A stretch of 54,422 nucleotides of DNA from a virus (taxonomy: Duplodnaviria; Caudoviricetes), in the IMG/VR virus record IMGVR_UViG_3300021420_000044, positions 1 through 54,422 of that record; one strand, 5' to 3'. Position 1 is the stretch's first letter. Each line of letters starts with the position of its first letter. This document shows positions 1 to 54,422 of this stretch, one piece after another. The notes under the pieces are model-generated. The model ran no database searches, was not told the origin of the DNA, and was given only the letters and a program-made list of their open reading frames with translations. Made by a program: the position numbers and the translations under genes.

Positions 1-140
1 ACTGCTGTAAGCCGGTAATGAGTTGGTTCTGGACCGTTTCGGTATGCGTCCCTGAATTGAACGAGTACGTGCTGTCCGCTCCAAACGCTCCAAGATTCCT
101 AAACTGCACTTCTGTAGTTGAGCCAGCAGGAGAGCCACTG
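1..140. repeat. Terminal direct repeat / circular-assembly overlap, copy 1
   Basis: 1-140 matches 54283-54422 except at offsets 8 (t/g) and 131 (a/c). Confidence 0.97.
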
Positions 141-4263: not shown

Positions 4264-4542
4264 TCAGCTCACGTACAGCACGTCAACAATGTCATTCTGT
4301 GTTCCAGCTACCCACCAATCGAAAAGATTCGTCGCATACACTGCCACAGGGCCAGAATTGATTGAGCCGCCTGCCGGTCCCGCCGCGATTCTTATGCCAT
4401 TAGTCGCAGTCACGGTGCTGTCACCGATTGTCATGGTGTGCGCGGCGTTGTTCTGAATGATGATTTGACGGCACGGTACGGAAGTCGCGCTGAACTGCGT
4501 TGCAGCGGCTCCAATCGTTATCTGTTTCAGGATGACTGCCAT
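4264..4542 (-). CDS. Small beta-rich virion protein without signal peptide
   Basis: 92 aa; RBS gaggac; abuts the fibre block. Confidence 0.6.
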   Translation of the reverse strand: MAVILKQITIGAAATQFSATSVPCRQIIIQNNAAHTMTIGDSTVTATNGIRIAAGPAGGSINSGPVAVYATNLFDWWVAGTQNDIVDVLYVS

Positions 4543-8799: not shown

Positions 8800-11400
8800 T
8801 CAGCTTATGACGAGCGCAGCCCCGACTGGCTTCTCCACAACTTCATGGTCAACACTCGAGATTTCCGTTGGCCCGACAATCGACAGCGTAGCGTGGAAGT
8901 TCTCTATCGTCCTCATCAAGTCCACGCGAGCCTCAAACTGGTTCGCTCCCAACGGCCTTATCCCTGCCGTAATCGTCAAATCATCACTCCCGTTGTAGGT
9001 TGGAATCACGCTGACGAACGGGTTCGATGACACGCCACGAATCACCAGCCGCCTGAAGAACGTTCTCTGGCTTCCACCTTCCGCGTACACTTCCGCAGTC
9101 CTGAATCCGCCCCGAACTTTGCCATCCACTGCACCAGCATTGACCGCTCCTGAGTCCCAATCTTGGTCCCCTGCCTGCCAGCGTCTCGTAGCTCCATCTG
9201 AGTACCCTGCCATGACGGTAATTGGGATGGTTCCTACCGCCCTAATCTGCTTCATCGTGGAAATCAGGAATGGCAGGTCAACTATGGCCCAAGCCTTCAG
9301 AACCAAGTCGTAACAAAACACGCGGCTTAACGCCCCACCAGCAGAAGCCGGAGCGCCTGCGGTCGTTGGAGTCGCATTCGTAATGCTGACTTGTGTCACC
9401 GAGCCTAGGACCGAGACGTAGTACGATTCTCCCCCTGGAGATGAGCCGATATAGACTCGCCACGTAACGAACGCCCCAGCATTCGGGAAAGTGACCAGCA
9501 AGTATTGCGACTGGTTGAGAAACGCCCCGATGAGCACCTTCTGCTCCGCAGTAATCGTGGCACTGCCGTCACTGTTCATGCCTTGAACTTTTATGTAATA
9601 GATTCCATTGGTGAACACAGGCCCAGAAGTCCTGACTCCCTGAGCCGTGAACGGGTAATTGGTCGATGAGGCATTCGTTCCCTGAATCGGACACGCGCAA
9701 ACGTACATTGGCGGGTTGGCTACCTGAGCGCCTTTCGAGAACCATGCAAAGTTCCAATCCACAGGAACAATATCCGGCTCCCCGCCGAAGATGTAGGGCC
9801 TGACTTCCTCACTCACCACCTTGTCGTAGAGTCCATCAAAGATGGCAAAGCCCAGATGCGTCAGCCGAATCAGGCCAAAACCGGGAAGATACTGAATGGA
9901 TCGGCCAGCAGAGCACCCCATATCAGTCTGAGCCTGCTGAATCGAGAAGTCTGCCGCCCCAAACACGCCATTGGTGACGTAGGTGCTAAAGTCCTTAAAT
10001 ACAGCAAGTTGGTTCGTGGTAGGAATCCCTGCCGCCGCCACGGCAAACGACTTGATGCCTGAAATCTGCTGCCCATCGTCTCTAGCAACTTGAGCCGCAT
10101 TCAGCGGATTCCATGAATTCGGGTTGTTGGCATCCGACATTCGGATAGCCGACGGCCCGTCTAGTTGGTCAGCACTGATTTGTGGAGCCGTATTCGCTAC
10201 CCAAATCGACCCTGCATAGACTTCCACATGCGCTGCCCCACGCGGAGGCGGGGAAGTAGAAACCTGCCCTGCGTTCTTCCAGATGATTGTTGACCCTGCA
10301 CCATCCCCAACGGTCTTATTCAGCGTGGCAGGCCACGTAGGCGCTGCTGTGGGGTTAGTTAAACCGCCTTGGACGGCGGTAAAAACGTAAGCAGTGCCTC
10401 CCACGGTCGCCTGAATCGAGTCGCCTTGGTTGAAAGCCAAATTAATCGCCCACGCTGGATAGGTAGCCGTGAACGTGTTGACGATTTGGATGGTATTCGC
10501 GTTCGTCCCGTCAGAAGTGAACGGAGACAGGCCATTTCCCAAGGCCAGAAACATCAGATTGGCGAACTGGATGATTTGAGGAATCGGGCTGATATTGCCT
10601 GTGATTCCTCCAGCCGGCGTAGGTGGCTGATTCCCGCTGGTTGGAGGGTGTGCCCCGCCTCCTCCTCCCCCGTATCCCCCTGGAGTATTGTCCTTGGGAG
10701 GAAGCCAATCCGCAGGGAAGGTAAACACAATGTTTGCAGCGCCATAGGTTCCGGGAGGCATTTGCTGGAATAGGCTTACCTGTGTGCTATTTATCCCTGG
10801 AGGAACCGCAGCGCCTAAATTAGCGTCAGGAACGTTGTCGATGTAACTGTTTGTTAGGATTGGAGTTGGATTGACCAAATGAACCAGCGAGCCGTTTGCC
10901 GTCGTCCGGTAGACGTTGTACCCGATAGCGTTGGTTACGGCAGTCCACGTCAGACTTTCTTTATGATTCGCCGCCAACGCAGTGCTTGACCCTGCCGACT
11001 GCGTAGTTTCCCCTCCAGCGCCGTCCAGAGCCGTCACAACCCACAGGTACGAGCCAGCCGAGAGCAAGCCTCCAGCCCCACCATCAACCGCTACGAATCC
11101 TGTCGGAACACCAAGATGCGTGTTGTAGTCCTTCCTGAGCAGGTAATAAGCGTTTGGCAACCCAATAGGTTCGTACAGGAACAACTCCATAATCGGACCG
11201 ATGTTGTCAGCCAGCGGGTGCATCGCGTTGTCGAGTTGAGAAATCAACTGCGTGCCATCACACGTCAACCAGCCTCCACGCTTCGTTAGCACCATGTTGG
11301 AGACACGCGGGACGGTGTTCTTAGGCTGTCCGAATGTCGAAAAAGCAGCGGACACGCCCTTGAACCACTTGCTCTGCCCCTGATTGCGAAGTGGACTCAT
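8800..11400 (-). CDS. Tail nozzle / DNA-stabilisation protein (podovirus type), 866 aa
   Basis: NMVLTKRGG near the N-terminus; beta-propeller-like composition (IRMSD..NP.SW, MGCSAGRSIQ, VSEEVRP); follows the adaptor. Confidence 0.7.
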   Translation of the reverse strand: MSPLRNQGQSKWFKGVSAAFSTFGQPKNTVPRVSNMVLTKRGGWLTCDGTQLISQLDNAMHPLADNIGPIMELFLYEPIGLPNAYYLLRKDYNTHLGVPTGFVAVDGGAGGLLSAGSYLWVVTALDGAGGETTQSAGSSTALAANHKESLTWTAVTNAIGYNVYRTTANGSLVHLVNPTPILTNSYIDNVPDANLGAAVPPGINSTQVSLFQQMPPGTYGAANIVFTFPADWLPPKDNTPGGYGGGGGGAHPPTSGNQPPTPAGGITGNISPIPQIIQFANLMFLALGNGLSPFTSDGTNANTIQIVNTFTATYPAWAINLAFNQGDSIQATVGGTAYVFTAVQGGLTNPTAAPTWPATLNKTVGDGAGSTIIWKNAGQVSTSPPPRGAAHVEVYAGSIWVANTAPQISADQLDGPSAIRMSDANNPNSWNPLNAAQVARDDGQQISGIKSFAVAAAGIPTTNQLAVFKDFSTYVTNGVFGAADFSIQQAQTDMGCSAGRSIQYLPGFGLIRLTHLGFAIFDGLYDKVVSEEVRPYIFGGEPDIVPVDWNFAWFSKGAQVANPPMYVCACPIQGTNASSTNYPFTAQGVRTSGPVFTNGIYYIKVQGMNSDGSATITAEQKVLIGAFLNQSQYLLVTFPNAGAFVTWRVYIGSSPGGESYYVSVLGSVTQVSITNATPTTAGAPASAGGALSRVFCYDLVLKAWAIVDLPFLISTMKQIRAVGTIPITVMAGYSDGATRRWQAGDQDWDSGAVNAGAVDGKVRGGFRTAEVYAEGGSQRTFFRRLVIRGVSSNPFVSVIPTYNGSDDLTITAGIRPLGANQFEARVDLMRTIENFHATLSIVGPTEISSVDHEVVEKPVGAALVIS

Positions 11401-41532: not shown

Positions 41533-41695
41533 TGTTTGCTCTCTCGTACTTTATGTACGTGAACCAACTTATTGGCCAGACTTCATACAGGCCGAAGCGG
41601 AAAATAACGTTGAGCCAGAGCCACATTGGCACCCATTTACGCTTGCTGCCAACCTTCACCAAATCCTCGAAGTCAAAGAATTCAGTGTGCTTCAT
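41513..41695 (-). CDS. Small aromatic-rich hypothetical protein
   Basis: Coupled on both sides. Confidence 0.45.
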   Translation of the reverse strand: MKHTEFFDFEDLVKVGSKRKWVPMWLWLNVIFRFGLYEVWPISWFTYIKYERANNATEAR

Positions 41696-42306
41696 CGAAT
41701 TGCCAACTGTGGATAGCCGTTCTGTTCAAGGAGCGCATTGAATCGCTTCTTAAACTGCGCCGGCGTGAGTTTCAAAGTCGGAACTGTAAGCCGTTTCGGA
41801 TTCTCAGCAGCGGCTTTCAATGCTGGCGTAGGAGCAGGAGCCGGTAGCTGCGTAGCGAAGCCCTGTAGAGTTGAGATGATGATTCCTAGCAAGCCCTGGA
41901 CCAGCGCAGCCAGCTTGCCATCTGGAATTTGCAAGTCGCTCCAGAATGTCTGAATGTTGGCTTCGAGCGATGCCAGTGCGGCAGAAATTTTGCCTAGCAG
42001 CGTTGTCTTGTCCCCAGGATTGTTGTTGTAGTTCGTCACTGCTACTTGCAAGTCAGCGAATCCTGCTTTCACCAGCGCAATGATGGCATCGAGCGCAGGG
42101 GCGCTTCCTAGCGGCAATACTCCAGCGCCAGTAAGCAAGTCCACCACGGCCTGAAATGCTTGCAGACCCACGCCAACGTACTTCAGAATCGCGGCGAACA
42201 CTGTGCCGAACGTACACGCTGTTTCCAGCACTGTGCTGCCAAGAGTTGAAGCTAGGGCTACGGCTCCCAAAGATAACTGCGCAAAACTGCGACGTGATGT
42301 GTTCAT
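41692..42306 (-). CDS. Putative Tat-exported lipoprotein in the lysis module
   Basis: MNTSRRSF twin-Arg, hydrophobic stretch, ETAC lipobox-like Cys; RBS gggag. Confidence 0.6.
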   Translation of the reverse strand: MNTSRRSFAQLSLGAVALASTLGSTVLETACTFGTVFAAILKYVGVGLQAFQAVVDLLTGAGVLPLGSAPALDAIIALVKAGFADLQVAVTNYNNNPGDKTTLLGKISAALASLEANIQTFWSDLQIPDGKLAALVQGLLGIIISTLQGFATQLPAPAPTPALKAAAENPKRLTVPTLKLTPAQFKKRFNALLEQNGYPQLAIR

Positions 42307-42800
42307 AAGTTCTCCCTGTCCAGAGCTGCCCATACTGCGGGGTATCCACCAGTCATAAACAGATGCCGTACTTCATCGGTCGGTTCGCTTTCGGGCCAGT
42401 GACCGTTCATTTGGAAGTGGGGTGCGTCTACAAATGTACGCCAAAACGCACCAGATACCAGCCCTAAATCTCGTCCTTTAGTTTCCATCAACCGCCACAC
42501 TGGATGCGATGCGTTCCAATCAGGAGAGTATGGTTGTCCAGGTCCGAACTGAGATGGAGCACAGTCAACGGCTAGGCCGAAGCAATGGAAACTGTATCCG
42601 CCTTGTACATTTGTGATTATGCTTCCGCGTGTAGTGCGGCCCTGAGCGTAGAGAACGTCTTGCTGTATCCAAGTCCGCAATCCTTGGACAACGCGAATCA
42701 AGATGCCCTGCGACTCCAGTGTTGAAGCCAGCACGACAATCTTGTCCGCGAGTCCAGGATAAACCGATTGCAATTTCGTGATTGAAACCGGGTCAAGCAT
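42303..42800 (-). CDS. Endolysin, M15 family (L-Ala-D-Glu peptidase type)
   Basis: QGLRT...Q..LYAQGRT, SFHCFGLAVD, DAPHFQ. Confidence 0.9.
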   Translation of the reverse strand: MLDPVSITKLQSVYPGLADKIVVLASTLESQGILIRVVQGLRTWIQQDVLYAQGRTTRGSIITNVQGGYSFHCFGLAVDCAPSQFGPGQPYSPDWNASHPVWRLMETKGRDLGLVSGAFWRTFVDAPHFQMNGHWPESEPTDEVRHLFMTGGYPAVWAALDRENL

Positions 42801-44240: not shown

Positions 44241-44549
44241 CTACGATTTTAAGCTACTCTTTGATGCCACAATCGGGACTGGCGGTGGCAGCGGCGGTAC
44301 GCCTACATCATGGCCTGCGCTGGCCTCTACTTCCGCAACGGTGCTATGCACTTGGCGGTCTTTCGCGTTGATTCCAAGCATCAATCCGCCGAGACTGATT
44401 GATAGCGTCAGCGCGAACATCACCCATTTGCCAAGCGTAATGTTGGTTGCCAGAGCCGCCGCAATTATGAGCGGAGGAACAGCAGCTAATATTCCCCCTA
44501 TGGAAGTTCTGTAGCTAGGCCCAAACCACTTGGTTAGAAGTTCGCCCAT
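44241..44549 (-). CDS. Holin-like two-TM protein
   Basis: Start refined to MGELL after aggagg; SYRTSIGG...two TMs...LGINAKD. Confidence 0.6.
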   Translation of the reverse strand: MGELLTKWFGPSYRTSIGGILAAVPPLIIAAALATNITLGKWVMFALTLSISLGGLMLGINAKDRQVHSTVAEVEASAGHDVGVPPLPPPVPIVASKSSLKS

Positions 44550-44557
44550 ATTGCCTC

Positions 44558-47500
44558 CTACTGCAAAGCCGCAACGTATAAATCCGCTCTCGCATGTCCT
44601 GCCGAATCGCTTCCCTCGCTCCCCAGATGGGTGCTCACCCAGGCAAACATGTCTCCCCGAGGCGAGACAATTCCAATACTCTCCTGCGCTCCAAAGCCGA
44701 AGTCTCCACCATTGGTGCAGTGCGCGTGTGAAGCGTCTCCACAACTGAACGTGTGCGCGATTCGGGCCACTTTATTTGTGGCTGGCACTCCGTTTGTAAA
44801 CCACACCATAATCTCGTTGTTGTACGGATTCGGGTTGTACACGCCGCCATTTGCCACCGTGGTTAGGTCGGAGGCGCATATCCAAGGCAGGGTATCGTCC
44901 ATCGTTCCGTTGTTGTTGTGCGGCCATGAACAGTGCTGGTCTTGGATGGCGAGAGCGTTCATGTACTTGGTAAACGAATTTAAGTTCGATAGCGGCCTGA
45001 TGGATGGCCCACCTAGAGGAGCGTTACCGGAAGCCGGAGTAAGCAGTTTGGCAATGCCTACCGATTCGTGCGCTCCGCATTGCAGACTGCCAGCGTTGTT
45101 ATTCGAGCACCACTTCGAGGTGCCCGCGTTCATGTTCACGAAGGCTGGCCCCGATGAGGCTATGCCAGCGCATCCCCCTATCGTCCAGACTCCTGCTTTG
45201 GCAATGTCAATGTAGGGATTCGAGGAATCGGCTCCTGCGAGAACGTCATGGATTCCGGCTCCATGTGCGCCGTCAGAGCCGTAACATTCCGTCGCGTCTG
45301 ATGGGAAAGTTCCCGCAGCGGGAGTGGAAGGACCGCAGCCTGAAGGGCAGTAAGCCCAATATTGTCCGGTGTGCGCATTGACGGTACGGCATCCACGAGT
45401 CCGGCTCCACTGAAATACCCAATCAGCGTCCCCCTGGGCGGTTGGCCCTAGTCCAATGGTGAAAGTGTCATCATCATCGGTGACGTTCAAGACGGAATGC
45501 CATGTCGCAGAGAATGGAACAGCATTCCAGCCAGGGCAAACGCCGGCTCCCATTAAATCGACTAGTTGCGACTCGGTGAACGCGGTATCGCTGGTCAGAT
45601 GCCCCTTCCAGATTTGGCTACCGGACTTGAAGCGGTAGAAATCCGTATCTGCCAGCCACGAAGTGTGAAAAGCTCCACCAGGCACCACATTCAAAGGCAA
45701 GCCCGTGTTGACGACTTGCGCCTTGCCGCCAGATAGGGCTATGTGCGCTAAATTCAGTGAGCCGCCAGCGATTGAGTACCAGAGGTACGTTCCGTTGGGA
45801 TAACTCCACTGATGGTCGTTGTCGCCGCCTGAAAGCGTAAAGTTGCCTACGGACGCCCCTCCGGCGATGGTTGTTCCATCTGAGGCGCGGCAGATTTGCT
45901 CCGTTCCCGGCGTATGCCCTGGAATGGTCAAATCTTCTTTGCAGGAATTTAAGCAGTCTCCAATGCACTTGTCAGGGAATGCGTAGTTCGATGCGCTGGC
46001 CGTGTTGACGCTTCCTGTGATATGCAGTTGGGTTGCCGAGTCGCACGAGCCAATCGTGAAAAGGATGGCGATTATCAGAATCTTATCCCCGACTACACAG
46101 TTTCCGCCGTTAAACTGGTCGCCAGCAGCCCAATTCACCGTCTGTGGAAACACGGTGTTCACTTGCCCACTCGGAGGCCGCGAGATGAACAAGGGCGCAA
46201 GCGTGCCTATCATGGGTAACGTGCTGTAGGAAGCTCCCAGATACAGTGGAGGGCCAAAACTGGCTCCAGCCTGAGAGCCGATGGCGAATGAACCAGAAAC
46301 GCAGTTCGTGTCGCAGCCTATGGCAGAAAAAGGTAAGACAAACTCATACGCTCCGCGGTCCCATGTTCCGTCTGCGCCTCGCGTATTACCTAATGGGTCA
46401 ATATCGTTTGCAGCTAATGTTGCATGTGTATTGGTGCCGTCGCTTAAAACGTGTCCGCTCGTGATTTCGCCTGCCAATAAGTAACTGTGCAGTGCCTGAT
46501 TAACGAATGGATCGCTTACTGAAGTCCAGACATGATCGTGAGTGTTGGGAGAAGACGGCGCGTTGCTGCCTAGATTAAGAAAAGTGTTGTAATCTTCGGT
46601 AGTTACTGCGCTGCTATCCCAAGTGCCAGCCGCTGCGGTGGTGTTATAAGCCAAATTATTGTAGGCCAGCCCTGTGCTGGTTACGCACCCGACACATCTC
46701 CAGCCCCAATGATTCGTATGGCTGGTCGTTCCGTCGCCTATGATGGTATTGTTAAGTATGAGGATGTTCGAGCAGCTTTGACCGTTATTGCCGCATGAGA
46801 AATTGCCATCCTGAATGCCGGTTCTGACGTATGGATTTCCGGGAGATAGTCCGAATATGTTGCCGTAAATATAAACGTTGGAAGTCGTTTCCACTGCTCC
46901 GCCGCGATACAAGACCACGAGATCGCCAGTTCCTTCAGTGTCAAGAAACCAGTTGTTAGCGAACGTGATGTTGTTGCTTCCGTCGTCCGCCCAACTCTCC
47001 GCGTGGAATCCATTAACATCGGTCGTCTCACGTTCAAAAGCGGTTCCACTTATGGTCGCCGTGTCCCACTGCGCGCTTATGATTCCGTTGGTAAAGTCGT
47101 GAACATAGCTGTCCGTGATAAATATGTTCGTACAGCCGGAACCCGGACTGCCAATCGTTCCGATGCACCGAACAAAGGCATCATCCGCCGCCGAGGCCAC
47201 AACTCCATTCACGGTACCGCTGCTGGATACGCTGGCGTTGGGGGTGCAGGATACGGGGTAAGTAAAATGCCGCGGGTCGGCGTTCGTGGCAATTTGTACG
47301 GCGGCGATATTGAAATTTCCGGATGAGACAGAAGCGACAGCGATCCACTGGCCGTTATAGATGTAATTATGAGCGCGCGTGGTCGCTAGCACTACTGTTG
47401 CGGTCGCACCACCAGCATCACATGCAATCGAGGAAATATTTGCCGTGTTTAGAGCCGATGCCTCGTTGTCCAGTTCTGGTCCGTAGTATTCAACGTTCTT

Positions 47501-48025
47501 GAATGTGAAGTTGCTATGTCCAGCGGTGATGTCTACAGCGGCAGTCTGATTCGACGGGTAACGGTTGTCGAACATCATGTTATAACCTGAATCCTTGCTA
47601 GCGCGACCATTACCGTCAAACACCCAGTAACTGCTGGTAATGACAAACATATAACCAAAAGCGTTGAAGGTGCAGGCACCGCACTGCCACCGGACTTGGT
47701 TTGAGGGAGTCGCAGCTAGTGGGCTAGTCCAATTTGTCGCTGTGCAGTGATCGGTCCCGGTGGCGGCCCGGAAGGTAATAGTTAACGTTCCGCTGACCGC
47801 TTGTGACAATGCCCAACCTTGTGAACTGCTCGCGGTATGGGTATACAGCCCCCCCGCCATGTAATACACGTCGCCTCTCGTCAGCGTTCCGGCAAGCTGA
47901 GCAGGCCCCATTGGACTTGCCCAGTCAGCCGCCACAGCATTGGAGGCTGAACCTGTCGTTGTGACGACGTGACAGGTCGCAAATACCGATGACGTTAACA
48001 TTAGAACGCAAAAGACAAGCCTCAC
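44558..48025 (-). CDS. Signal-peptide-bearing beta-helix plus beta-propeller-like carbohydrate-active/adhesin protein (1155 aa)
   Basis: MRLVFCVLMLTSSVFA|; repeated N.TF.NN / I.NNT. rungs; DPLGNTRGADGTWDRGAYEF; Cys-rich C-terminal half. Confidence 0.7.
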   Translation of the reverse strand: MRLVFCVLMLTSSVFATCHVVTTTGSASNAVAADWASPMGPAQLAGTLTRGDVYYMAGGLYTHTASSSQGWALSQAVSGTLTITFRAATGTDHCTATNWTSPLAATPSNQVRWQCGACTFNAFGYMFVITSSYWVFDGNGRASKDSGYNMMFDNRYPSNQTAAVDITAGHSNFTFKNVEYYGPELDNEASALNTANISSIACDAGGATATVVLATTRAHNYIYNGQWIAVASVSSGNFNIAAVQIATNADPRHFTYPVSCTPNASVSSSGTVNGVVASAADDAFVRCIGTIGSPGSGCTNIFITDSYVHDFTNGIISAQWDTATISGTAFERETTDVNGFHAESWADDGSNNITFANNWFLDTEGTGDLVVLYRGGAVETTSNVYIYGNIFGLSPGNPYVRTGIQDGNFSCGNNGQSCSNILILNNTIIGDGTTSHTNHWGWRCVGCVTSTGLAYNNLAYNTTAAAGTWDSSAVTTEDYNTFLNLGSNAPSSPNTHDHVWTSVSDPFVNQALHSYLLAGEITSGHVLSDGTNTHATLAANDIDPLGNTRGADGTWDRGAYEFVLPFSAIGCDTNCVSGSFAIGSQAGASFGPPLYLGASYSTLPMIGTLAPLFISRPPSGQVNTVFPQTVNWAAGDQFNGGNCVVGDKILIIAILFTIGSCDSATQLHITGSVNTASASNYAFPDKCIGDCLNSCKEDLTIPGHTPGTEQICRASDGTTIAGGASVGNFTLSGGDNDHQWSYPNGTYLWYSIAGGSLNLAHIALSGGKAQVVNTGLPLNVVPGGAFHTSWLADTDFYRFKSGSQIWKGHLTSDTAFTESQLVDLMGAGVCPGWNAVPFSATWHSVLNVTDDDDTFTIGLGPTAQGDADWVFQWSRTRGCRTVNAHTGQYWAYCPSGCGPSTPAAGTFPSDATECYGSDGAHGAGIHDVLAGADSSNPYIDIAKAGVWTIGGCAGIASSGPAFVNMNAGTSKWCSNNNAGSLQCGAHESVGIAKLLTPASGNAPLGGPSIRPLSNLNSFTKYMNALAIQDQHCSWPHNNNGTMDDTLPWICASDLTTVANGGVYNPNPYNNEIMVWFTNGVPATNKVARIAHTFSCGDASHAHCTNGGDFGFGAQESIGIVSPRGDMFAWVSTHLGSEGSDSAGHARADLYVAALQ

Positions 48026-48026
48026 G

Positions 48027-49883
48027 TTAACTAGCTCCAGTGATTTTCACATCACAGCGAGGGATGATTGACCCCGTAGTAGCAGATTGAATTTCCTGTA
48101 TAGCGATCTTGTGGCCTGATGTTACAGCCACGGAAAGCCCGGTGACACTGCATGTTTGCGCCGTTCCAGTGATCGTGCAGGTTGCCGTGGTGGTAGTTGC
48201 ATCGTCGTAGTAGGCAGTAAACGCAATTGTTTGCCCACTTGCAGGCGGAGATATAGAAGCACAATACATTTCGCTAATCGTGCCAGTGAACGGGAGGAGT
48301 ATGTCGGCGGCGGCCACCGTGGCCGCCGCCGTAAAAGAAAAGTAATGGGTGGCAGCTTGAGCTGTGCTTACGGGTGACCATAGCGAAAGAAGAGCGGTCC
48401 CCGCGACTGGAGCGCTATACGCCCCCGTTCCATTCAGAAAATGAGTGGCTACATTATCAAGTTTTGGCGTGAATCCGTGAGCAGATGTAGAAACATTGCC
48501 AGTAGTATTATCAGCGAAAACGTGCATGGCTTCGGTTACTTGTGCAGCACCAATAGTCAATGCCAAAGAACCTGCGGAGTTGGTAACGTTTCCGGTATGG
48601 GCTGGTTCGCGCCCTGCTGCGAGAGTGCCTGTCGCGTCTGCTCCACTTAAATCCACCGCGCTGCTGGTCACGGCTTGCGTTGATCCGGCGAAATGAGCGA
48701 TACCCACACCTGGAGAAGTAGCTGTAACGATATTGCTGGGATTAAGAGCAAACTGCGTGAAAGTGACCGCATCAGTTCCTATCGTCGCTACCGACGACGT
48801 TTGTAGCCACTGCGTTTGCGCGTTTACCGTGCCGTTCACAACCGGGATTGCTCCCGTATTGTTCATGTCCGAAGGCTGGTCATAATCCAGAGCACGAGTC
48901 AGTATCCAAGCCACACCCACGCCAGATACCTGAGTAACGAGGTACACGCCGTTTTGGAACGTACTAGCCTGATTCTTGACCAAGATGCGGTCGTTCAATA
49001 CCGGAGTGTAGCCGTCCACTACCAATGACGTGTTTGTCGTCGCTGTTGTGAGTGTCGCGCCAATTCCTGCCACTCCATTGCTATAAGTAGGAGAATTTGG
49101 CAGTACAGCAGCAGAAGTAGCCTGCACAGCCACTGCTGGATTGACCGCTGCAATGGCATTGGTGACTGCTGTTGCCACGAACGCTGTGGAGGCTGCGTTG
49201 GTGCTACTATCTCCCGCTGATACTGTAGAGACTTTCGTAGCCGTGGCTCCAGTTAAATCCTGCGTCCCAGTCGTAATCGTATTGGAAGCATTAGTCACAA
49301 CACAGGTCGCGCAAGCAATTGTTCCTGTGCCTGTGATTGTGCCGCCAGTGATGGGAGCAGTGGTTGCTATCGAGGTGACTGTTCCAGAACCACCCGCCGC
49401 GTCCGTAGGTGACAGCATCTGCCAAACACCAGCAGCAGATTCAAATGTCATTAATGTCCACTTGTTAGCCAGCATATCGTTAGCTACCAAATTGGCCGAG
49501 CCGCCTTGCTTTTTGATTGTCCCTGCCGTCGCCCCATTGACGGCTAGCGTTGATGAACCAGTATTCGCCACATCAGACTCAAACAGTACGGTATCACCGT
49601 CTGCTGGCGTGAAACTTGGCGACGTAGTGCAGGTATAAGCTGTCCCAGAAGCAGAAGCGGCCTCGCAAATAAGCGGTAAGGCGACAGCATGGGCAGTGTA
49701 GGTAAAGCCAAGATTTCCAGTCGTTGTCACCGGAGAACCTGTAATCGTAAAGCCGGTTGGCGCTGTCAAACCTACGCTGGTTACGGTCCCAGACCCTCCT
49801 CCACCAACGGGAGGATTCGTAACCTGAGCAACAGCCAAAGAACAACAGAGTAGTAACCACGTTAGCGCTAGTTTATTCATCAT
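48027..49883 (-). CDS. Signal-peptide-bearing tail-fibre-like protein
   Basis: MMNKLALTWLLLCCSLAVA|Q; GTVTSV/GTVTSI modules, ASTAFV, DRILVKNQ....NGVY...LTRA.D phage fibre motifs. Confidence 0.75.
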   Translation of the reverse strand: MMNKLALTWLLLCCSLAVAQVTNPPVGGGGSGTVTSVGLTAPTGFTITGSPVTTTGNLGFTYTAHAVALPLICEAASASGTAYTCTTSPSFTPADGDTVLFESDVANTGSSTLAVNGATAGTIKKQGGSANLVANDMLANKWTLMTFESAAGVWQMLSPTDAAGGSGTVTSIATTAPITGGTITGTGTIACATCVVTNASNTITTGTQDLTGATATKVSTVSAGDSSTNAASTAFVATAVTNAIAAVNPAVAVQATSAAVLPNSPTYSNGVAGIGATLTTATTNTSLVVDGYTPVLNDRILVKNQASTFQNGVYLVTQVSGVGVAWILTRALDYDQPSDMNNTGAIPVVNGTVNAQTQWLQTSSVATIGTDAVTFTQFALNPSNIVTATSPGVGIAHFAGSTQAVTSSAVDLSGADATGTLAAGREPAHTGNVTNSAGSLALTIGAAQVTEAMHVFADNTTGNVSTSAHGFTPKLDNVATHFLNGTGAYSAPVAGTALLSLWSPVSTAQAATHYFSFTAAATVAAADILLPFTGTISEMYCASISPPASGQTIAFTAYYDDATTTTATCTITGTAQTCSVTGLSVAVTSGHKIAIQEIQSATTGSIIPRCDVKITGAS

Positions 49884-50269
49884 TTGCACCCGTTAAACGC
49901 CGCTCCCGTAGCGGAAATCACCACAGACGTGCAGGTAAAGGACGTTGGCATGGTGCCAGCAGGGCCGACCGGGCCAACGTCGCCTCTCGGGCCAATCGGG
50001 CCAGCAGGTCCAACGCTCCCGCCAAGCGCAGTGTATGCCGCGCCATCAACGCTAACCTTGACCCCAGACGACGTAAAGCAGACCGCAACGATTCCCACGG
50101 CCGGCGTCTGGCACGGACTACCCGTAGTCGTGCTCATGCCTATTGAGGTGCCGTTAGGGATTGTGCCCTGCGCTGCCACGCGGTCAGGCATGAACAGGCC
50201 CAACGCTACCCCTACGACCAGCGAGCCTCCGAGCACCACTCCTACGCCCATTGTCCTCACAAGTCGCAT
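49880..50269 (-). CDS. Small exported protein with collagen-like G-X-Y repeat
   Basis: Hydrophobic N-terminus ...VAA|Q; GPAGPIGPRGDVGPVGPAG. Confidence 0.7.
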   Translation of the reverse strand: MRLVRTMGVGVVLGGSLVVGVALGLFMPDRVAAQGTIPNGTSIGMSTTTGSPCQTPAVGIVAVCFTSSGVKVSVDGAAYTALGGSVGPAGPIGPRGDVGPVGPAGTMPTSFTCTSVVISATGAAFNGCK

Positions 50270-50277
50270 GGTCCCTC

Positions 50278-51555
50278 CTATTGCGTTTCAAGCAAAATCG
50301 GCTGTATCCCTACCGGAATCCCTGGACAGATCGGGGAGCAGGCTGGAGTCGGAGTCCTTGTTCCGTCCAATTTCCTGATGAACTTCCATTTAGCATCCTG
50401 CGCGTACAGTCCAGTCGTACACTTCCCTCCCGAGCACGTCTTGCTCGTATCCCACACAGCCTCAGACTGATATCCGCCAGCCTTCGTGAAATAGCAATCC
50501 CATACTGTGCCATTTTTACCACACACGTTGGTCGGAGTCGCCCCAACCAGCCATATTGGCATCTGCTTGTACGCCACGCCCGAAGGTAGTAGTTTCCCGC
50601 CTGCTACCAGCCCTCCCCAATCGCCCTGAGACGTGTACCAGAACGCCTTTTTCACTCCCAAGCTGGCCTGAATGAGATACGCTCTCGCTACCCAACTCGC
50701 CTGCAAATCAGGGTCGTTGAAGCAGGTAAAACCCGATTGCCCCCATGAGAATTCGGTGTCCCACAGAGGCTTGAGAGGTGGATAAGTAATCATCAGGGCC
50801 GTCAGATTCGCTACATGTACTCGTACGTCCTCTGGAATCGCTGAAACGCCGCATTTCTGAGGGTAAACGTTGGTATACCCATGATACGCAACGTAATCCA
50901 CTGAACCGAGTCCGCCTGCCGCCGCCAAACCTTGCCACCATTTCATCTGATAGCCGAATTGCGCTTGATTCTCCGGCGTCCCGCATAGCACCCCTGGAGC
51001 TAGCTTATGAACGATGTCGCAGGTGTCCTTCGTCATACGGGCTAACTGCGCTGGAGTGCCGTTCCAATGACCCAACCAGCCCGGCTCATTCCATGTACTG
51101 AAAGCGGATACGTGAGGACGGCCATTGATGCGGGACTCGCTCCGGTTGACTATCGCCGTAACGAAGTCTTTCCAGTGCTGGTCGGTGGTTGCAATGTCCG
51201 AAGGCGGGGAGCAGGCATACTGCGTTTTCCCCATCTTGCAATTCGGGTCAGCCCTGAGAGCGGCCCACTGCGGCGTCTCGCTCAACGTCATCAGAACGTC
51301 AGTCACGCCCAAGACTTTGGCATCCTCCAAGAGTTTGTCGAACGTGGTCCAGTTGTACGTTCCGTTAGCCGTGTTGGTGTCTTTCCACGGAGTACCCACG
51401 TCCCACTGACGTAGTGCTCCTGTAGGTGATGACATCAAAAGGTTGCTGGTCCCAATCCCATTCTGGTCAGCGGAGACGAAGCTAGGCGTAATCTGCCCAG
51501 AGGCCATGATAGATAAGCAGAAACTAACTGCCAAAAGTCGGAATAGATTTTGCAT
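50278..51555 (-). CDS. Secreted clan GH-A glycoside hydrolase (GH39/GH5-like)
   Basis: Signal ...MASG|Q; GTYNW..FD, WNEP (acid/base), YHGY, LWDTEF (nucleophile). Confidence 0.8.
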   Translation of the reverse strand: MQNLFRLLAVSFCLSIMASGQITPSFVSADQNGIGTSNLLMSSPTGALRQWDVGTPWKDTNTANGTYNWTTFDKLLEDAKVLGVTDVLMTLSETPQWAALRADPNCKMGKTQYACSPPSDIATTDQHWKDFVTAIVNRSESRINGRPHVSAFSTWNEPGWLGHWNGTPAQLARMTKDTCDIVHKLAPGVLCGTPENQAQFGYQMKWWQGLAAAGGLGSVDYVAYHGYTNVYPQKCGVSAIPEDVRVHVANLTALMITYPPLKPLWDTEFSWGQSGFTCFNDPDLQASWVARAYLIQASLGVKKAFWYTSQGDWGGLVAGGKLLPSGVAYKQMPIWLVGATPTNVCGKNGTVWDCYFTKAGGYQSEAVWDTSKTCSGGKCTTGLYAQDAKWKFIRKLDGTRTPTPACSPICPGIPVGIQPILLETQ

Positions 51556-51556
51556 G

Positions 51557-54422
51557 CTAGTTCCTTCCTACGCACCCATAATCAATCACGTCACTCGCGC
51601 CGGGAGTAGTGAACGTCACTGAAGCGACTCCAGTGTAGGTGACTTTGATTCCGCCTGCGGTGGTTTCATCCGACGCCCAACACACAGGATGGGAGGCGTA
51701 CGTTCCCAAGAATGCGTAGGTCACCGTGCTTCCAGAAGCGGTCAACGTACCACCCATGTCTGTGTTAGCAGCTAAACCTGTGCCGATTCCACCAGGACTC
51801 TCTAGCCCGCCAGGAACGTAGAACTCCAAGCCCCTACTGAGAGACGCAGAGCCAAGCACAACATTGAATTTGTCGTCCTGCATGAGATTGAAATTGCCCG
51901 ATGTAGACGCCACGGAGTTGAACGTCTGTCCGCCATCTGCCGCCGCTCCCTCTCGCACTCCGCAAGCTAACGTGGACGGTCCAGAGACTCCCAAGAAAAC
52001 ACCATTCCTGACCAGACTGTAGGTGCCAACCTTTATGGCGCAATCTGTGCTCTGCTCGCCGTGGAACGACACTACGACTGGATTGTTCACGCCATCAATC
52101 ACCAGTCCAGCAGTCATGCGGCCTGGATTAGCACTGCCCTGCGCTGTGTTCGATAGCAGGCGATGAGGCCCGTCCGCCTGTGGCCCGTTGTTGTAGCCCG
52201 TATTCCCGCCACCGCTTGCCACCACTGCCGTAACTACGTTCGTCTGCGAGATGCCATTAATCGTTCGTGAGCCGACCGTGACTGTACAGGTAGCTCCTGA
52301 TACCAGAGCACCGCCGTAGGTCGATGGCGCTCCGTAAATCGTGCAAGTCGGAGGAGTGACGTTGCATCCCCCTGAGCCTGCCGTATTGCCGTTGCCATCG
52401 TTGCCGACTCCAATTGAAGTGATAGCCCCTGTGCTCACGCCCACCACGTATGCGGTCGGTTGCACGGCACACGACCCTTGCGTCATCACTACCGTATCGC
52501 TGGCCCCTTCAATGACAATGCCGTTTACCGGAGCAGACGCTACAGGGTCAACCGTGGCCTTCGTATTGATGTGCAAATCTTCGGCTGAGAAGTGAGTCGG
52601 CCCAGAGGCAGAGGTTGGAGCTTCTGTCCGGTCCCAGAACACTGCTGCCGCATTCGCTGGCACCGTAGCGTTGATGGAGCCAATATCACCGAACGCAATT
52701 CCAGTGTACTTGCAGCCTTCTTGGCAGTTCATGTTGTAGATACCGAAGGCGTTGTTGTTGCCGCCGAGCGAGACTTTGATTTCCGGCCCAAGAATGTGAC
52801 GGAAAGAATCAGTCTGCCAGCCTACCCCGAACGACCCGCCACTCTGCGCTCCATCACAAATCAAGCAAGCATAAGTTCCAGCCGCGTAAGGACCGTGCTG
52901 GATGGTAAACGTCAGTTGGTTGGTAGCATTCGGGAAACGTGGGACTGTGACTCCCCCCACACTGCAATTCGTAGTCACCCAAGTAGGCGCAGCAGGGCCG
53001 CACGCCTGAATCAACGTGCCAGTAATATTCGCTGGCCCTGAAGCAGCCCCTGACCCGTACATCTGAAACGCTACCTGCGGAGTTGACCACGGCACGCTCG
53101 ACACAATCTGTGCCGCTCCAAGCATCAACGTCAACGGCTTATTGCATCCCGCAAACGGGTCAGAATTGCACGCCTGCGGTCCAGAGAAGCCACGAGCATC
53201 AATGGTTCCGCCAGAGGAAGGCAGTTTGGCCGTACAAGCATTGTTAATCTTGGCGCACATATCAGCGCCCGTAGCCCCTAGAGCATCCACGAAGCCGCTG
53301 GAGCCGAATCCGGTACATAGCCCTACGCACGTTGCCCCGCCATTCAGTGTTACTGCACCACCAAACTGATTTTTGGCCGTTCCTGCCTCAAATATCCCCC
53401 AAGGGTCGGCATTCGATGCGCCAATCGTCTGGTCAGCTATGTACATCCCGTAATGATGGCTGACCGTGCCTAACGAGGCGTTGGGCGAGGCCGCATAGAA
53501 ATCGGCGTCATTTGTCGTCGTACATCCCGAACAAGTGTTGTTTAGGGTTGCTCCGTAGACTGCCGCATTCGTTGTTACGGTATGGTCCTTAGTCTGGGAT
53601 AGGAAATTGCCTCCAGTCTGAAGCGTGACCGCAGAAGTGCTGGCCGAGCCTCCAAAGCCAGAAATGACTTCTACTCCATTCATTCCACTGACAGTTGCAT
53701 TGATATTGTTCTGGGCAGTGAACAGCCCTCCATCAAGTGTCCCAATCGCGGTTGCTGTCGAGCCAAGGCTTGAGACTTTGCCGTTTACTCCGACCATTCG
53801 ATTGGTGGTGTTCGTTGTGGTCTGGTCCTGAAAGATAAACAGACTCCCGTAGCAATCCTGTGCCGAACAGTCAGTCTGCGTGGAAATCGCTTCGAGCGTG
53901 GCGTGATTCGCATTGTCTGTGCCTCCACCTGATGCTCCGTTAAACAGGCCAAACCCGAACTCAAGCGAGTACGTATTGTCATCTTGGAAACGACGCCCAC
54001 TCGCACCTGTATCCGTAAATGGCGAGTTCCCCAAAACTGTTGCGCTCGTCCATTCTGGAAGCAGGGTAGCCGTACCGCTGCCTGTGATGCCTGTCCCTCC
54101 CGCTTCAGCTAAATCCTTGCATACCCCGCTCGCGCCGTGACACTGAGCCAGAAAGCCGTCATTCTGGATGCACAGCCCTGTGTAGCCTGAAACAAGGCCG
54201 CCAGGAAGGAACGTAGAGGTAAACGTCGCTACCGTGCAGGCAGGAATCGGAATCTGTGATGCCATCTGGTACGGCCCGTTAAACTGCTGGAAGCCGGTAA
54301 TGAGTTGGTTCTGGACCGTTTCGGTATGCGTCCCTGAATTGAACGAGTACGTGCTGTCCGCTCCAAACGCTCCAAGATTCCTAAACTGCACTTCTGTAGT
54401 TGAGCCAGCAGGCGAGCCACTG
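51557..54422 (-). CDS. 3' part of the junction-spanning fibre/tailspike-like protein (starts at 847)
   Basis: G/T/S/A-rich; GADMCAKINNAC..LP..GGTIDARG tailspike-like start; open reading continues through the terminal repeat. Confidence 0.85.
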   Translation of the reverse strand, partial: SGSPAGSTTEVQFRNLGAFGADSTYSFNSGTHTETVQNQLITGFQQFNGPYQMASQIPIPACTVATFTSTFLPGGLVSGYTGLCIQNDGFLAQCHGASGVCKDLAEAGGTGITGSGTATLLPEWTSATVLGNSPFTDTGASGRRFQDDNTYSLEFGFGLFNGASGGGTDNANHATLEAISTQTDCSAQDCYGSLFIFQDQTTTNTTNRMVGVNGKVSSLGSTATAIGTLDGGLFTAQNNINATVSGMNGVEVISGFGGSASTSAVTLQTGGNFLSQTKDHTVTTNAAVYGATLNNTCSGCTTTNDADFYAASPNASLGTVSHHYGMYIADQTIGASNADPWGIFEAGTAKNQFGGAVTLNGGATCVGLCTGFGSSGFVDALGATGADMCAKINNACTAKLPSSGGTIDARGFSGPQACNSDPFAGCNKPLTLMLGAAQIVSSVPWSTPQVAFQMYGSGAASGPANITGTLIQACGPAAPTWVTTNCSVGGVTVPRFPNATNQLTFTIQHGPYAAGTYACLICDGAQSGGSFGVGWQTDSFRHILGPEIKVSLGGNNNAFGIYNMNCQEGCKYTGIAFGDIGSINATVPANAAAVFWDRTEAPTSASGPTHFSAEDLHINTKATVDPVASAPVNGIVIEGASDTVVMTQGSCAVQPTAYVVGVSTGAITSIGVGNDGNGNTAGSGGCNVTPPTCTIYGAPSTYGGALVSGATCTVTVGSRTINGISQTNVVTAVVASGGGNTGYNNGPQADGPHRLLSNTAQGSANPGRMTAGLVIDGVNNPVVVSFHGEQSTDCAIKVGTYSLVRNGVFLGVSGPSTLACGVREGAAADGGQTFNSVASTSGNFNLMQDDKFNVVLGSASLSRGLEFYVPGGLESPGGIGTGLAANTDMGGTLTASGSTVTYAFLGTYASHPVCWASDETTAGGIKVTYTGVASVTFTTPGASDVIDYGCVGRN
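54283..54422. repeat. Terminal direct repeat / circular-assembly overlap, copy 2
   Basis: Matches 1-140 with 2 mismatches. Confidence 0.97.

What the first reader, a model, noticed from the sequence alone, without database searches (positions are those of the whole stretch)
44558..54422. Whole fibre/receptor-binding module appears Sec-exported: six consecutive signal-peptide genes (continues at 1-4263)
Seen: genes starting at 4263, 847, 51555, 50269, 49883 and 48025 are tightly coupled, span ~14 kb (about a quarter of the genome), and each begins with a basic-hydrophobic-small-residue signal. They sit between the ejection and lysis genes, carry phage fibre/tailspike motifs and many Cys, and I see no signal-less large fibre gene elsewhere. 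Established: tailed phages normally assemble fibres in the reducing cytoplasm without signal peptides. Inference: this phage exports its adhesins to the periplasm for disulfide-dependent folding and attaches them to particles at or after lysis. Alternatively they act as a secreted host-surface or matrix-remodelling kit.
Basis: partly seen in the sequence, partly recalled or inferred. Interest (0 to 1): 0.88.

Follow-up and report, generated by a model that had tools for sequence, protein, structure and literature searches.

The report
Phage tail fibres carrying export signals
All six tail-fibre-module genes of this soil phage begin with host-type secretion signals, which suggests the phage sends its host-recognition proteins out of the cytoplasm before they join the virus particle.

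Summary
The window is a complete circular podophage genome of about 54.3 kb. It has a 140-nt end overlap, a distantly Mx8-like capsid protein and a T7-like nozzle. Six tightly coupled genes (about 14 kb) lie between the internal-protein genes and a holin-like gene plus endolysin. Each starts with a basic n-region, a hydrophobic core and a small-x-small site. In five of six the next residue is Gln.

The trait is shared by the lineage. In 19 related genomes, 39 of 144 ORFs of at least 500 aa are signal-like, and all 39 sit at fibre positions. The first two proteins share an N-terminal beta-sandwich domain, conserved while the rest of each protein varies. Of 76 usable representatives of that domain in a 1.84-billion-protein library, 69 carry a leader.

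An Acidobacteriota MAG, the likely host type, shows the same leader|Gln junction in 27 of 30 CarboxypepD_reg proteins. Protein 5 shares a domain with the solved LME-1 tail fibre. Protein 3 is a PslG-like glycosidase.

Export and cleavage are inferred, not shown. Attachment at lysis is speculative. Five literature searches found no precedent.

The parts
844..4263 (-). p1, 1139 aa. Leader at 4213-4263 (17 aa, AFC|Q). Conserved N-terminal beta-sandwich domain at residues 18 to about 120 (about 3904-4212). Long variable C-terminal part.
   Evidence: ORF. Leader. N-domain found in 27 of 34 related records, in ORFs of 342-2538 aa. AF2 model: helix 2-15, then a 7-strand sandwich at pLDDT about 90. 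Best Foldseek matches are phage tail-fibre proteins, weakly. Atlas lead to viral pectate-lyase / tail-fibre clusters scores 0.83 and is a lead only.
1..847 (-). p2 N-terminal part. Leader at 785-847 (AWS|Q; alternative upstream TTG at 874). Second copy of the N-domain.
   Evidence: The TTG at 847 overlaps p1's stop (TTGA).
51557..54422 (-). p2 C-terminal part. The last 140 nt of the window repeat bases 1-140. The whole protein is 1190 aa with 36 Cys in the mature form.
50278..51555 (-). p3, 425 aa. Leader at 51496-51555 (ASG|Q), followed by a PslG / GH39-like glycoside hydrolase. It has no fibre N-domain.
   Evidence: PDB GH39 beta-xylosidases at E 2.3e-5, PslG weakly. 108 homologues, many on chromosomal contigs (up to 2.69 Mb) of Acidobacteria / Terriglobales MAGs, several named PslG by JGI.
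49880..50269 (-). p4, 129 aa. Long Gly/Val-rich hydrophobic N-terminus at 50171-50269 (VAA|Q). Short collagen-like G-x-y run. 4 Cys.
   Evidence: (PHROG tail-fibre hits, E 3.6e-5, over the collagen-like run).
48027..49883 (-). p5, 618 aa (alternative GTG start at 49889). Leader at 49827-49883 (AVA|Q). Tail-fibre protein.
   Evidence: phrog_8745 tail fibre at E 8.3e-12. Residues 234-391 match the tail fibre of the Legionella phage LME-1 portal-tail complex (PDB 9EFK) at E 1.6e-26. The same domain is annotated as tail fibre in 13 of 14 cultured-phage records.
44558..48025 (-). p6, 1155 aa, GTG start. Leader at 47978-48025 (VFA|T, the only one without Gln). 32 mature Cys. Near-orphan.
   Evidence: Only one homologue, 40% identical over 24% of the protein. 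The atlas lead to beta-helix clusters scores 0.86 and is a lead only.
4264..4542 (-). 92-aa gene directly upstream of p1; its stop abuts p1's ATG. Function unknown. No leader.
4552..6840 (-). Two Cys-free, highly charged proteins (400 and 361 aa). Presumed internal/ejection proteins by position only.
   Evidence: (no family hit). The same Cys-free pair precedes the leader-bearing genes in the relatives.
8800..11400 (-). 866-aa tail nozzle, T7 gp12-like.
   Evidence: PHROG virion-protein hits. A low-confidence AF2 model (pLDDT 55) nevertheless gives 25 top Foldseek matches that are almost all podophage nozzles, including PhiM1, SU10, T7 gp12 and P22 gp10, at E 7.5e-7 to 3e-4 with low TM-scores.
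44241..44549 (-). Holin-like gene, 102 aa, two hydrophobic segments. It has a strong SD sequence and starts 9 nt after p6.
   Evidence: The only Pfam hit is weak (DUF3147). The holin role is inferred.
42303..42800 (-). Endolysin (Peptidase_M15_4 / VanY) without a leader.
   Evidence: E 2.3e-7 and 7.9e-6.

Best explanation
This is a podophage, probably of Terriglobia (Acidobacteriota). Its whole receptor-binding set carries genuine host-type Sec / signal-peptidase-I leaders: two large N-domain fibres or spikes, a PslG-like glycosidase, a small collagen-like protein, an LME-1-like fibre and a large Cys-rich protein.

**Proposed course, with what is shown and what is inferred:**
1. Late in infection the six proteins are made from one translationally coupled operon. 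Shown: the coupling.
2. Sec carries them across the inner membrane. Inferred.
3. Signal peptidase I cuts after the small-x-small site. Inferred from the motif and from leaderless homologues that begin at exactly that position.
4. Cleavage exposes an N-terminal Gln, which may cyclise to pyroglutamate. Inferred from the Bacteroidetes Q-rule literature and from a glutaminyl-cyclase hit in the candidate host MAG.
5. The proteins fold in the oxidising periplasm.
6. Capsids with tails assemble in the cytoplasm. When the holin and the cytoplasmic endolysin open the envelope, the two pools mix. The fibres dock through their conserved N-terminal beta-sandwich domain. This step is speculative. Its only support is the recalled fact that fibreless or spikeless P22 and T4 particles can be armed in vitro.

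p3 probably acts as a free periplasmic or released polysaccharide hydrolase.
For: **1. Leaders are real and non-random.**
- 6 of 6 module genes pass the heuristic, against 5 other ORFs among the 83 called and 25 of 349 shadow ORFs.
- SD sequences or stop/start coupling sit at the leader start codons.
- AF2 gives a separate helix at residues 2-15 before the domain.

**2. The trait belongs to the lineage.**
- In 19 genomes of the clade, 39 of 144 ORFs of at least 500 aa are leader-like under a strict rule. All 39 lie after the Cys-free internal-protein pair or, in 4 cases, right after the capsid gene. 34 of the 39 have Gln at +1 of a candidate site.
- 25 of 30 N-domain homologues in relatives have a leader, 24 of them with small-x-small|Q.
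- 69 of 76 usable representatives from a 1.84-billion-protein library have a leader.
- Leader sequences differ freely while their physicochemical pattern and the junction are kept.

**3. At least five unrelated mature N-termini in one operon all carry leaders**.

**4. The junction matches the probable host.**
- In the MAG titled uncultured Terracidiphilus sp., 27 of 30 CarboxypepD_reg proteins show leader + small-x-small|Q 3-7 residues before the domain.
- That MAG holds the only genome-collection relative of the capsid gene.
- The -1 and -3 residue usage is alike in phage and MAG.
- The MAG has a Glu_cyclase_2 hit at E 1.6e-29.

**5. Leaderless homologues start at the predicted mature N-terminus.** Examples: MAGYTTVTG..., MTLVTATV....

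**6. These are virion fibres.**
- The N-domain is conserved while the C-terminal parts are swapped.
- The family was seen only on contigs of at most 62 kb, in the 20 of 79 representatives looked up.
- p5 is homologous to a solved virion fibre.
- No other candidate receptor-binding protein exists.

**7. No outer-membrane sorting or lipoprotein signal** was found, so the periplasm is the default destination (lipobox checked by eye).

**8. The endolysin lacks a leader.** Lysis therefore depends on a holin that must let a folded protein through the inner membrane.
Against: - No export, cleavage or virion composition was measured. SignalP was not available, and my heuristic is crude.
- The N-domain also exists without a leader in 7 of 76 representatives and 5 of 30 locus homologues. 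The leader state changed at least 3-4 times on the tree. Export is therefore not needed for this domain to fold or to function.
- Among the best 120 relatives of p5's fibre domain, 79 have ordinary leaderless fibre N-termini.
- Leaderless fibres are as Cys-rich as leader-bearing ones.
- The Cys-pair/leader association is 80/14/2/9 over 105 rows. It has only 3-4 independent contrasts and is not significant.
- p1 has 21 mature Cys, an odd number.
- Joining periplasmic fibres to cytoplasmic particles has no precedent that I found, and its efficiency is unknown.
- The host assignment rests on one binned 5.8-kb contig and on p3 homology.
Confidence: 0.45

Rival explanations
1. The proteins are exported and cleaved but are not virion parts. 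On this reading the module is a secreted kit of polysaccharide hydrolases and adhesins. It loosens the host's exopolysaccharide or envelope before and during lysis. Host recognition is done by the nozzle or by an unrecognised small protein.
For: - p3 is a PslG / GH39-like enzyme. Its closest relatives are chromosomal genes of Acidobacteria / Terriglobales, and it has no fibre N-domain.
- p6 is a near-orphan with only a beta-helix lead.
- The topology problem disappears.
Against: - p1 and p2 have the classic fibre design of a conserved N-terminal domain plus swapped C-terminal parts.
- The N-domain also occurs leaderless at the same genomic position.
- p5 shares a domain with a solved virion fibre and with annotated tail fibres of cultured phages.
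- No other fibre candidate exists in any of the 19 genomes read.
Confidence: 0.2
2. The leader is not used for bulk export. It acts as an assembly or timing device. It might tether fibres to the inner membrane until the holin depolarises it, in the manner of signal-arrest-release. Or only a minor fraction is exported, while virions receive cytoplasmic copies whose leader is retained or removed by another protease.
For: - p4's hydrophobic segment is long and Gly/Val-rich, which resembles SAR domains as I recall them.
- Leaderless homologues show that cytoplasmic assembly of this domain is possible.
- This keeps fibres and particles on the same side of the membrane, or releases them at the right moment.
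Against: - Five of the six leaders are Leu-rich with a positive n-region, and so favour translocation of what follows.
- The small-x-small|Q junction is kept in 24 of 25 leader-bearing locus homologues and matches the host's own exported proteins. Nothing would preserve it if signal peptidase never saw it.
Confidence: 0.25
3. Chance or annotation artefact: hydrophobic N-termini arising from wrong start codons or from composition.
For: - Start codons of p2, p5 and p6 are non-ATG or ambiguous.
- The heuristic has a false-positive rate of about 7% on shadow ORFs.
Against: - Six of six in a row.
- SD sequences or coupling sit at the leader starts.
- The pattern recurs in dozens of diverged relatives with unrelated leader sequences.
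Confidence: 0.03

Closest known systems
Sec-exported and SAR endolysins of tailed phages (for example Oenococcus phage fOg44 Lys44; mentioned in PMC8878798, passages read; P1 Lyz recalled)
   Same: A late protein of a tailed phage carries an N-terminal signal and is moved across the inner membrane by the host Sec system before lysis.
   Different: Those are lysis enzymes, one per phage, and not virion parts. Here the whole receptor-binding module (six genes, a quarter of the genome) carries leaders, while the endolysin itself has none.
Filamentous phage (Ff) coat proteins pIII/pVIII with signal peptides (recalled; PMC4823517 seen only in the listing)
   Same: Virion proteins, including the receptor-binding one, are exported by Sec and join the particle outside the cytoplasm.
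   Different: Ff particles assemble by extrusion through the envelope without lysis. This phage has terminase, portal, HK97-type capsid, nozzle, a holin-like gene and endolysin.
Podophage tail fibres and spikes: T7 gp17, P22 gp9, LME-1 fibre (PDB 9EFK; PMC12407071, passages read)
   Same: Same genomic position after the internal proteins. Conserved N-terminal tail-binding part with a variable distal part. p5 shares a domain with the LME-1 fibre at E 1.6e-26. Separately made spikes can be added to finished heads in vitro (recalled for P22).
   Different: Known examples have no signal peptide and are assembled in the cytoplasm. The N-domain here has no hit in 50,697 cultured-phage records.
Bacteroidetes Q-rule substrates (PMC5837995, PMC10653852) and the five Q-rule genes of unknown function in Porphyromonas gingivalis Nixviridae prophages (PMC10367356, passages read)
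   Same: The leader is cut so that Gln becomes the new N-terminus. Phage genes can follow the host's rule.
   Different: Those papers restrict the rule to Bacteroidetes, and neither main text mentions Acidobacteria. The P. gingivalis phage genes are of unknown function and are discussed as modifiers of the host surface, not as fibres.
PslG, the periplasmic GH39 hydrolase of Pseudomonas Psl exopolysaccharide (PDB 4zn2/5bx9)
   Same: p3 is a leader-bearing single-domain glycosidase of this type. Homologues are named PslG by JGI.
   Different: p3 is phage-encoded inside the fibre operon. Similarity to the solved PslG itself is weak (E 0.26). Catalytic residues were not checked.

Membership tests
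Sec / signal peptidase I (type I) signal peptide | Positively charged n-region, uncharged hydrophobic h-region of about 8-20 residues, small residues at -1 and -3, within the first 15-40 residues | tested here: met
   All six meet it under my heuristic. The median leader is 21 aa (range 14-31) in the 40 of 53 clade proteins that have a small-x-small|Q site. p4's h-region is unusually long (22 aa).
Sec / signal peptidase I (type I) signal peptide | Prediction by a trained predictor (SignalP, DeepTMHMM), or experimental export and cleavage | not testable with these tools
No cultured host.
Q-rule substrates (Gln at +1, pyroglutamate) | Gln immediately after the cleavage site | tested here: met
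   5 of 6 in the window. 34 of 39 large leader-bearing ORFs in the clade. 27 of 30 CarboxypepD_reg proteins of the candidate host MAG.
Q-rule substrates (Gln at +1, pyroglutamate) | Host glutaminyl cyclase and actual cyclisation | tested here: inconclusive
   One Glu_cyclase_2 match (E 1.6e-29) at a contig end in the MAG. Cyclisation cannot be tested.
Lipoprotein (signal peptidase II) signal | Lipobox [LVI][ASTVI][GAS]C at the end of the h-region (motif recalled) | tested here: not met
   By eye: p1 has TAFC and p6 has FATC, with F and T at -1. The other four have no Cys at the junction.
Podophage tail fibre / receptor-binding protein | Position in the late operon after nozzle and internal proteins and before lysis genes | tested here: met
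Podophage tail fibre / receptor-binding protein | Conserved N-terminal attachment part with exchangeable distal parts | tested here: met
   Holds for p1 and p2 only. The N-domain is in 27 of 34 relatives, in ORFs of 342-2538 aa, and the rest of p1 is not conserved.
Podophage tail fibre / receptor-binding protein | Homology to a fibre seen in a virion structure | tested here: met
   p5 versus PDB 9EFK fibre chains, E 1.6e-26 over 158 residues. Not met by sequence for p1, p2 and p6. The N-domain fold matches cyanophage A-1(L) fibre only weakly (E 6e-3).
Podophage tail fibre / receptor-binding protein | Presence in purified particles | not testable with these tools
   No isolate and no proteome.
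SAR (signal-arrest-release) domain | Weakly hydrophobic Gly/Ala/Ser-rich N-terminal segment that is not cleaved (features recalled) | tested here: inconclusive
   p4's segment fits by composition. The other five are Leu-rich with a cleavage motif.
GH39 / PslG-like glycoside hydrolase (p3) | Significant similarity to family members | tested here: met
   PDB GH39 xylosidases at E 2.3e-5. 108 homologues carrying GH clan-A Pfam labels or the name PslG. Against Pfam directly, only a sub-threshold Glyco_hydro_42 hit.
GH39 / PslG-like glycoside hydrolase (p3) | Catalytic acid/base and nucleophile glutamates | not tested
   No alignment to a solved enzyme was inspected.
Outer-membrane or surface sorting signals (T9SS C-terminal domain, PEP-CTERM, autotransporter) | A recognisable C-terminal sorting domain | tested here: not met
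   No NCBIfam or Pfam hit in any of the six.

The most novel reading that the evidence does not exclude
A widespread group of soil and peat podophages arms its particles outside the cytoplasm. All receptor-binding proteins are exported by Sec, trimmed by signal peptidase I to an N-terminal Gln (pyroglutamate) and matured in the periplasm. They join fibreless particles only when the envelope is opened. The habit may extend to other phages of hosts that follow the Q-rule, because a third of the closest relatives of an ordinary tail-fibre domain also carry such leaders (41 of 120).
Probability: 0.4. Interest if true: 0.92.

Novelty: new variant of a known kind. Interest (0 to 1): 0.8.

Why it matters
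Textbook assembly of tailed phages is wholly cytoplasmic. The absence of signal peptides has even been used as an argument that a hypervariable binding protein belongs to a phage rather than to a cell (PMC6199706, passage read).

**If these fibres are exported:**
- Tail-fibre maturation can use periplasmic chemistry: signal peptidase, pyroglutamate capping, disulfides and perhaps glycosylation.
- Particle completion becomes coupled to lysis.
- Annotation pipelines that treat a signal peptide as evidence of a non-structural or "moron" gene would mislabel the receptor-binding proteins of a large group of soil phages.

**Two further leads:**
- The leader|Gln junction is a sequence marker that ties uncultured phages to hosts that follow the Q-rule.
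- The data suggest that the rule also holds in Acidobacteriota, which two papers do not consider.

Tried and rejected
- **Anchor scan.** I scanned IMG/VR with the 400-aa internal protein, hoping to reach the fibre modules of relatives. It gave only 10 weak N-terminal matches in unrelated contigs, so I used whole records instead.
- **Family libraries.** Pfam (also at E up to 5), PHROGs and NCBIfam gave nothing for p1, p2 or p6.
- **PDB sequence searches.** Nothing for p1, p2, p6 or the 866-aa protein. The 414-aa protein gave only one chance-level match (E 0.74).
- **Complex prediction.** The 414-aa presumed adaptor with the N-domain gave no verdict (score 0.00, controls not run). It says nothing either way.
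- **Cys parity.** 5 of 6 mature proteins have an even Cys count, which is not significant.
- **Cys content versus leader across genomes.** No difference between leaderless and leader-bearing fibres.
- **Cys pair versus leader on a tree.** Too few independent contrasts.
- **Protein atlas.** All scores are below 0.9, so they are leads only.
- **Nozzle model.** The AF2 model of the 866-aa protein is poor (pLDDT 55). I use its Foldseek matches only because they agree with one another.
- **Lipoprotein reading.** Rejected, because there is no lipobox.
- **Prophage-in-host reading.** Rejected, because the assembly is the 54-kb contig alone.
Full report
**What the window is.** The assembly consists of this contig alone.
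- Its last 140 nt repeat its first 140 nt with two mismatches, so it is a circular or terminally redundant genome of about 54,282 bp.
- Nearly all genes are on the minus strand.
- Family searches identify a large terminase interrupted by an intein with a LAGLIDADG domain, a portal and a major head protein.
- The nearest cultured relatives of the head protein are Myxococcus phages Mx8 and Mx9, at about 25% identity.
- The 866-aa protein downstream gave a poor AF2 model (pLDDT 55). Its 25 best Foldseek matches are nevertheless almost all podophage tail nozzles, including T7 gp12, P22 gp10, PhiM1, SU10 and Carin-1, at E 7.5e-7 to 3e-4 with low TM-scores.
- The gene order is portal, scaffold-sized gene, capsid, 414-aa gene, nozzle, small genes, two Cys-free charged proteins, the six genes of the finding, a holin-like gene with two hydrophobic segments (44241-44549), and a leaderless Peptidase_M15_4 endolysin.

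**The observation.**
- The second gene runs across the contig junction. With the overlap removed it is one open frame of 1190 aa.
- Neighbouring genes overlap by 4 nt or are separated by at most 8 nt. Shine-Dalgarno-like sequences or stop/start overlaps lie directly at the start codons that include the hydrophobic N-termini.
- A simple von Heijne-type rule asks for a net positive n-region, an uncharged hydrophobic stretch, and small residues at -1 and -3. It accepts all six, 5 other ORFs among the 83 called, and 25 of 349 shadow ORFs.
- Five of the six candidate sites are followed by Gln: AFC|Q, AWS|Q, ASG|Q, VAA|Q and AVA|Q. The sixth is VFA|T.
- No trained signal-peptide predictor was available, and that is the main weakness of this check.
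- The seven ORFs of at least 500 aa are four module proteins plus nozzle, portal and terminase. There is no leaderless fibre candidate.
- Mature module proteins hold 1.3-4.2% Cys, against 0-0.7% in the other virion proteins.

**Relatives.**
- The capsid protein finds 85 relatives in IMG/VR, of which 80 were kept.
- I read 18 of these records in full, together with the window itself. G030 and G031 are near-identical.
- Under a stricter rule, 39 of 144 ORFs of at least 500 aa are leader-like. By their coordinates, all 39 lie in a block after the Cys-free pair or, in four cases (G003, G004 twice, G007), right after the capsid gene. None is a terminase, portal or nozzle. 34 of the 39 have Gln at +1 of a candidate site.
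- The rule missed two leader-bearing fibres whose open frames extend far upstream (G018; G005).
- G030 and G031 have leaderless fibres.

**A conserved N-terminal domain.**
- Only the first 113-180 residues of p1 are conserved in relatives.
- This part is found in 27 of 34 records, in open frames of 342 to 2538 aa. p2 carries a second copy.
- AF2, with 34 sequences, models a helix at residues 2-15 and then a seven-stranded beta-sandwich at pLDDT about 90.
- Foldseek matches are weak. They are led by the cyanophage A-1(L) tail and neck fibres and by prealbumin-like folds in PDB (best E 6e-3). In BFVD they are led by N-terminal parts of phage tail-fibre and tail proteins, including one annotated with a carboxypeptidase regulatory domain (best E 1.4e-4).
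- Of the 33 matches, the 30 that were returned as loci were read. 25 carry a hydrophobic leader, and 24 of those have small-x-small|Q directly before the domain. Five are leaderless and begin with Met one to three residues before the first strand.
- A search of 1.84 billion representative proteins gives 79 hits at E up to 1e-3. I dropped one repeat protein and two N-terminally truncated fragments. Of the remaining 76, 69 carry a leader and 7 do not.
- The 20 representatives I looked up are all unnamed or "hypothetical" and sit on contigs of at most 62 kb. Metagenome contigs are generally short, so this is weak evidence.
- No cultured phage has the domain.

**The other module proteins.**
- p5: residues 234-391 match the tail fibre chains of PDB 9EFK at E 1.6e-26. 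The paper that deposited 9EFK describes it as the portal-tail complex of Legionella phage LME-1, with six trimeric fibres (PMC12407071, passages read). The same domain hits 14 cultured-phage records, 13 of them annotated as tail fibre. It has 2,715 relatives at E up to 1e-5. Among the best 120, 41 are leader-like (35 with a Gln site) and 79 have ordinary fibre N-termini.
- p3: resembles GH39 xylosidases (E 2.3e-5) and, weakly, PslG. Its 108 homologues include proteins of Acidobacteria and Terriglobales MAGs on contigs of up to 2.69 Mb, several named PslG. It has no fibre N-domain.
- p4: small, with a collagen-like run.
- p6: has a single partial homologue.
- None of the six has a recognisable outer-membrane sorting domain.

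**Host, and why the junction matters.**
- The only relative of the capsid gene in one-genome-per-species contigs is a 5.8-kb contig of a MAG titled uncultured Terracidiphilus sp.. This rests on binning, but it agrees with the p3 homologies.
- In that MAG I retrieved the 30 best CarboxypepD_reg (PF13620) matches. 27 show a hydrophobic leader and small-x-small|Q 3-7 residues before the domain. Residues at -1 are A 19, G 6, S 2. In the 40 phage leaders with a small-x-small|Q site they are A 29, G 9, C 1, S 1.
- The phage fibres therefore reproduce the architecture of the host's own exported outer-membrane proteins: leader, Gln, a few residues, then a beta-sandwich.
- The MAG also has a glutaminyl cyclase family match.
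- The two Q-rule papers describe the rule as specific to Bacteroidetes and do not mention Acidobacteria in their main texts (PMC5837995; PMC10653852; passages only, supplements not seen).

**Mechanism.** I think the leaders are functional Sec/SPI signals.
- Five or more unrelated mature N-termini in one operon have them.
- Their sequences drift while the pattern and the junction are kept.
- The junction matches the host's.
- Leaderless homologues begin exactly at the predicted mature end.
- p1, p2 and p5 look like virion fibres, and no other fibre exists. The simplest consistent picture is therefore that the fibres mature in the periplasm and meet the particles when the holin and the cytoplasmic endolysin open the envelope. 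That last step is inference only.

Several results count against the picture.
- The N-domain works without a leader in several lineages. The leader state changes at least 4 times on the tree, and at least 3 times on well-supported branches.
- Most relatives of p5's domain are leaderless.
- The disulfide rationale is weak. Two conserved Cys in the N-domain go with the leader in raw counts: 68/1/1/6 among representatives, and 80/14/2/9 after adding 28 locus homologues and p2 (two duplicate rows left out). Only 3-4 independent contrasts exist, so the test has no power.
- Leaderless fibres are as Cys-rich as the others.

**Literature.** Five full-text searches combined tail fibre, tailspike or receptor-binding protein with signal peptide, Sec, periplasm, Acidobacteria or crAss. 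None found a report of signal peptides on tail fibres of tailed phages.
- The passages I read concern endolysins (PMC8878798) or unnamed signal-peptide counts in rumen Bacteroides phages (PMC5723332).
- One states that phage DGR target proteins lack signal peptides (PMC6199706).
- One reports five Q-rule genes of unknown function in P. gingivalis prophages (PMC10367356).
- The library misses most subscription journals, and supplements were closed, so a precedent cannot be excluded.

**Verdict.** Export and cleavage are likely (about 0.65 over all readings that include them). Periplasmic maturation followed by arming at lysis is the best single reading, at about 0.45. The disulfide motive is not shown.

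Noticed in passing
window 20922-23705 (-): The large terminase is 927 aa, against 574-592 aa in most relatives. It carries LAGLIDADG_3 (E 1.2e-11) and a weak Intein_splicing hit, so it holds an intein with a homing endonuclease. G008 has a similarly long terminase of 947 aa.
   Followed up: partly
window 13505-14002 (-): A 165-aa gene lies between the capsid and tail genes. Its N-terminus reminds me of LAGLIDADG homing endonucleases (recalled). There was no Pfam hit at E up to 0.01.
   Followed up: no
window 41692-42333 (-): A 213-aa protein next to the endolysin has a twin-arginine-like N-terminus (SRRSFAQ followed by a hydrophobic stretch). No family hit. It may be another exported lysis or envelope protein.
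   Followed up: no
window 35597-36067 (-) and 37610-37939 (-): Two small proteins outside the late operon also have leaders ending small-x-small|Q (AAS|Q, SYG|Q). No family hits.
   Followed up: no
L180-L209 (genome G035, MAG titled uncultured Terracidiphilus sp.): 27 of 30 CarboxypepD_reg proteins have Gln right after the predicted signal-peptidase site, and the MAG has a glutaminyl cyclase family hit. The Q-rule, published as specific to Bacteroidetes, may also hold in Acidobacteriota. Only one protein family in one MAG was examined.
   Followed up: partly
G005 about 55.4-55.8 kb and G008 about 49.1-49.8 kb (L113, L112): In these relatives the first fibre gene is a short (226 aa) leaderless N-domain protein. 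It lacks the two conserved Cys and is followed by a leader-bearing protein of about 877 aa (ASA|Q). This could be a split design with a cytoplasmic adaptor and an exported distal protein.
   Followed up: partly
proteins P0199-P0318: A third (41 of 120) of the closest relatives of p5's ordinary tail-fibre domain carry leaders, mostly with Gln at +1. Some have Lys-rich, low-GC-looking leaders. Leader-bearing fibres may therefore be common in phages of other hosts that follow the Q-rule. The origin of these contigs was not examined.
   Followed up: partly
G003 34676-36859, G004 25549-29420, G007 53369-54889: In some relatives, leader-bearing N-domain genes sit directly after the capsid gene instead of, or in addition to, the usual fibre position.
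   Followed up: no
window 1-140 and 54283-54422: The terminal repeat has two mismatches (positions 8/54290 and 131/54413). This suggests an assembly overlap drawn from a mixed population rather than an exact repeat. It falls inside p2 and changes one residue of the repeated stretch (F/L).
   Followed up: partly
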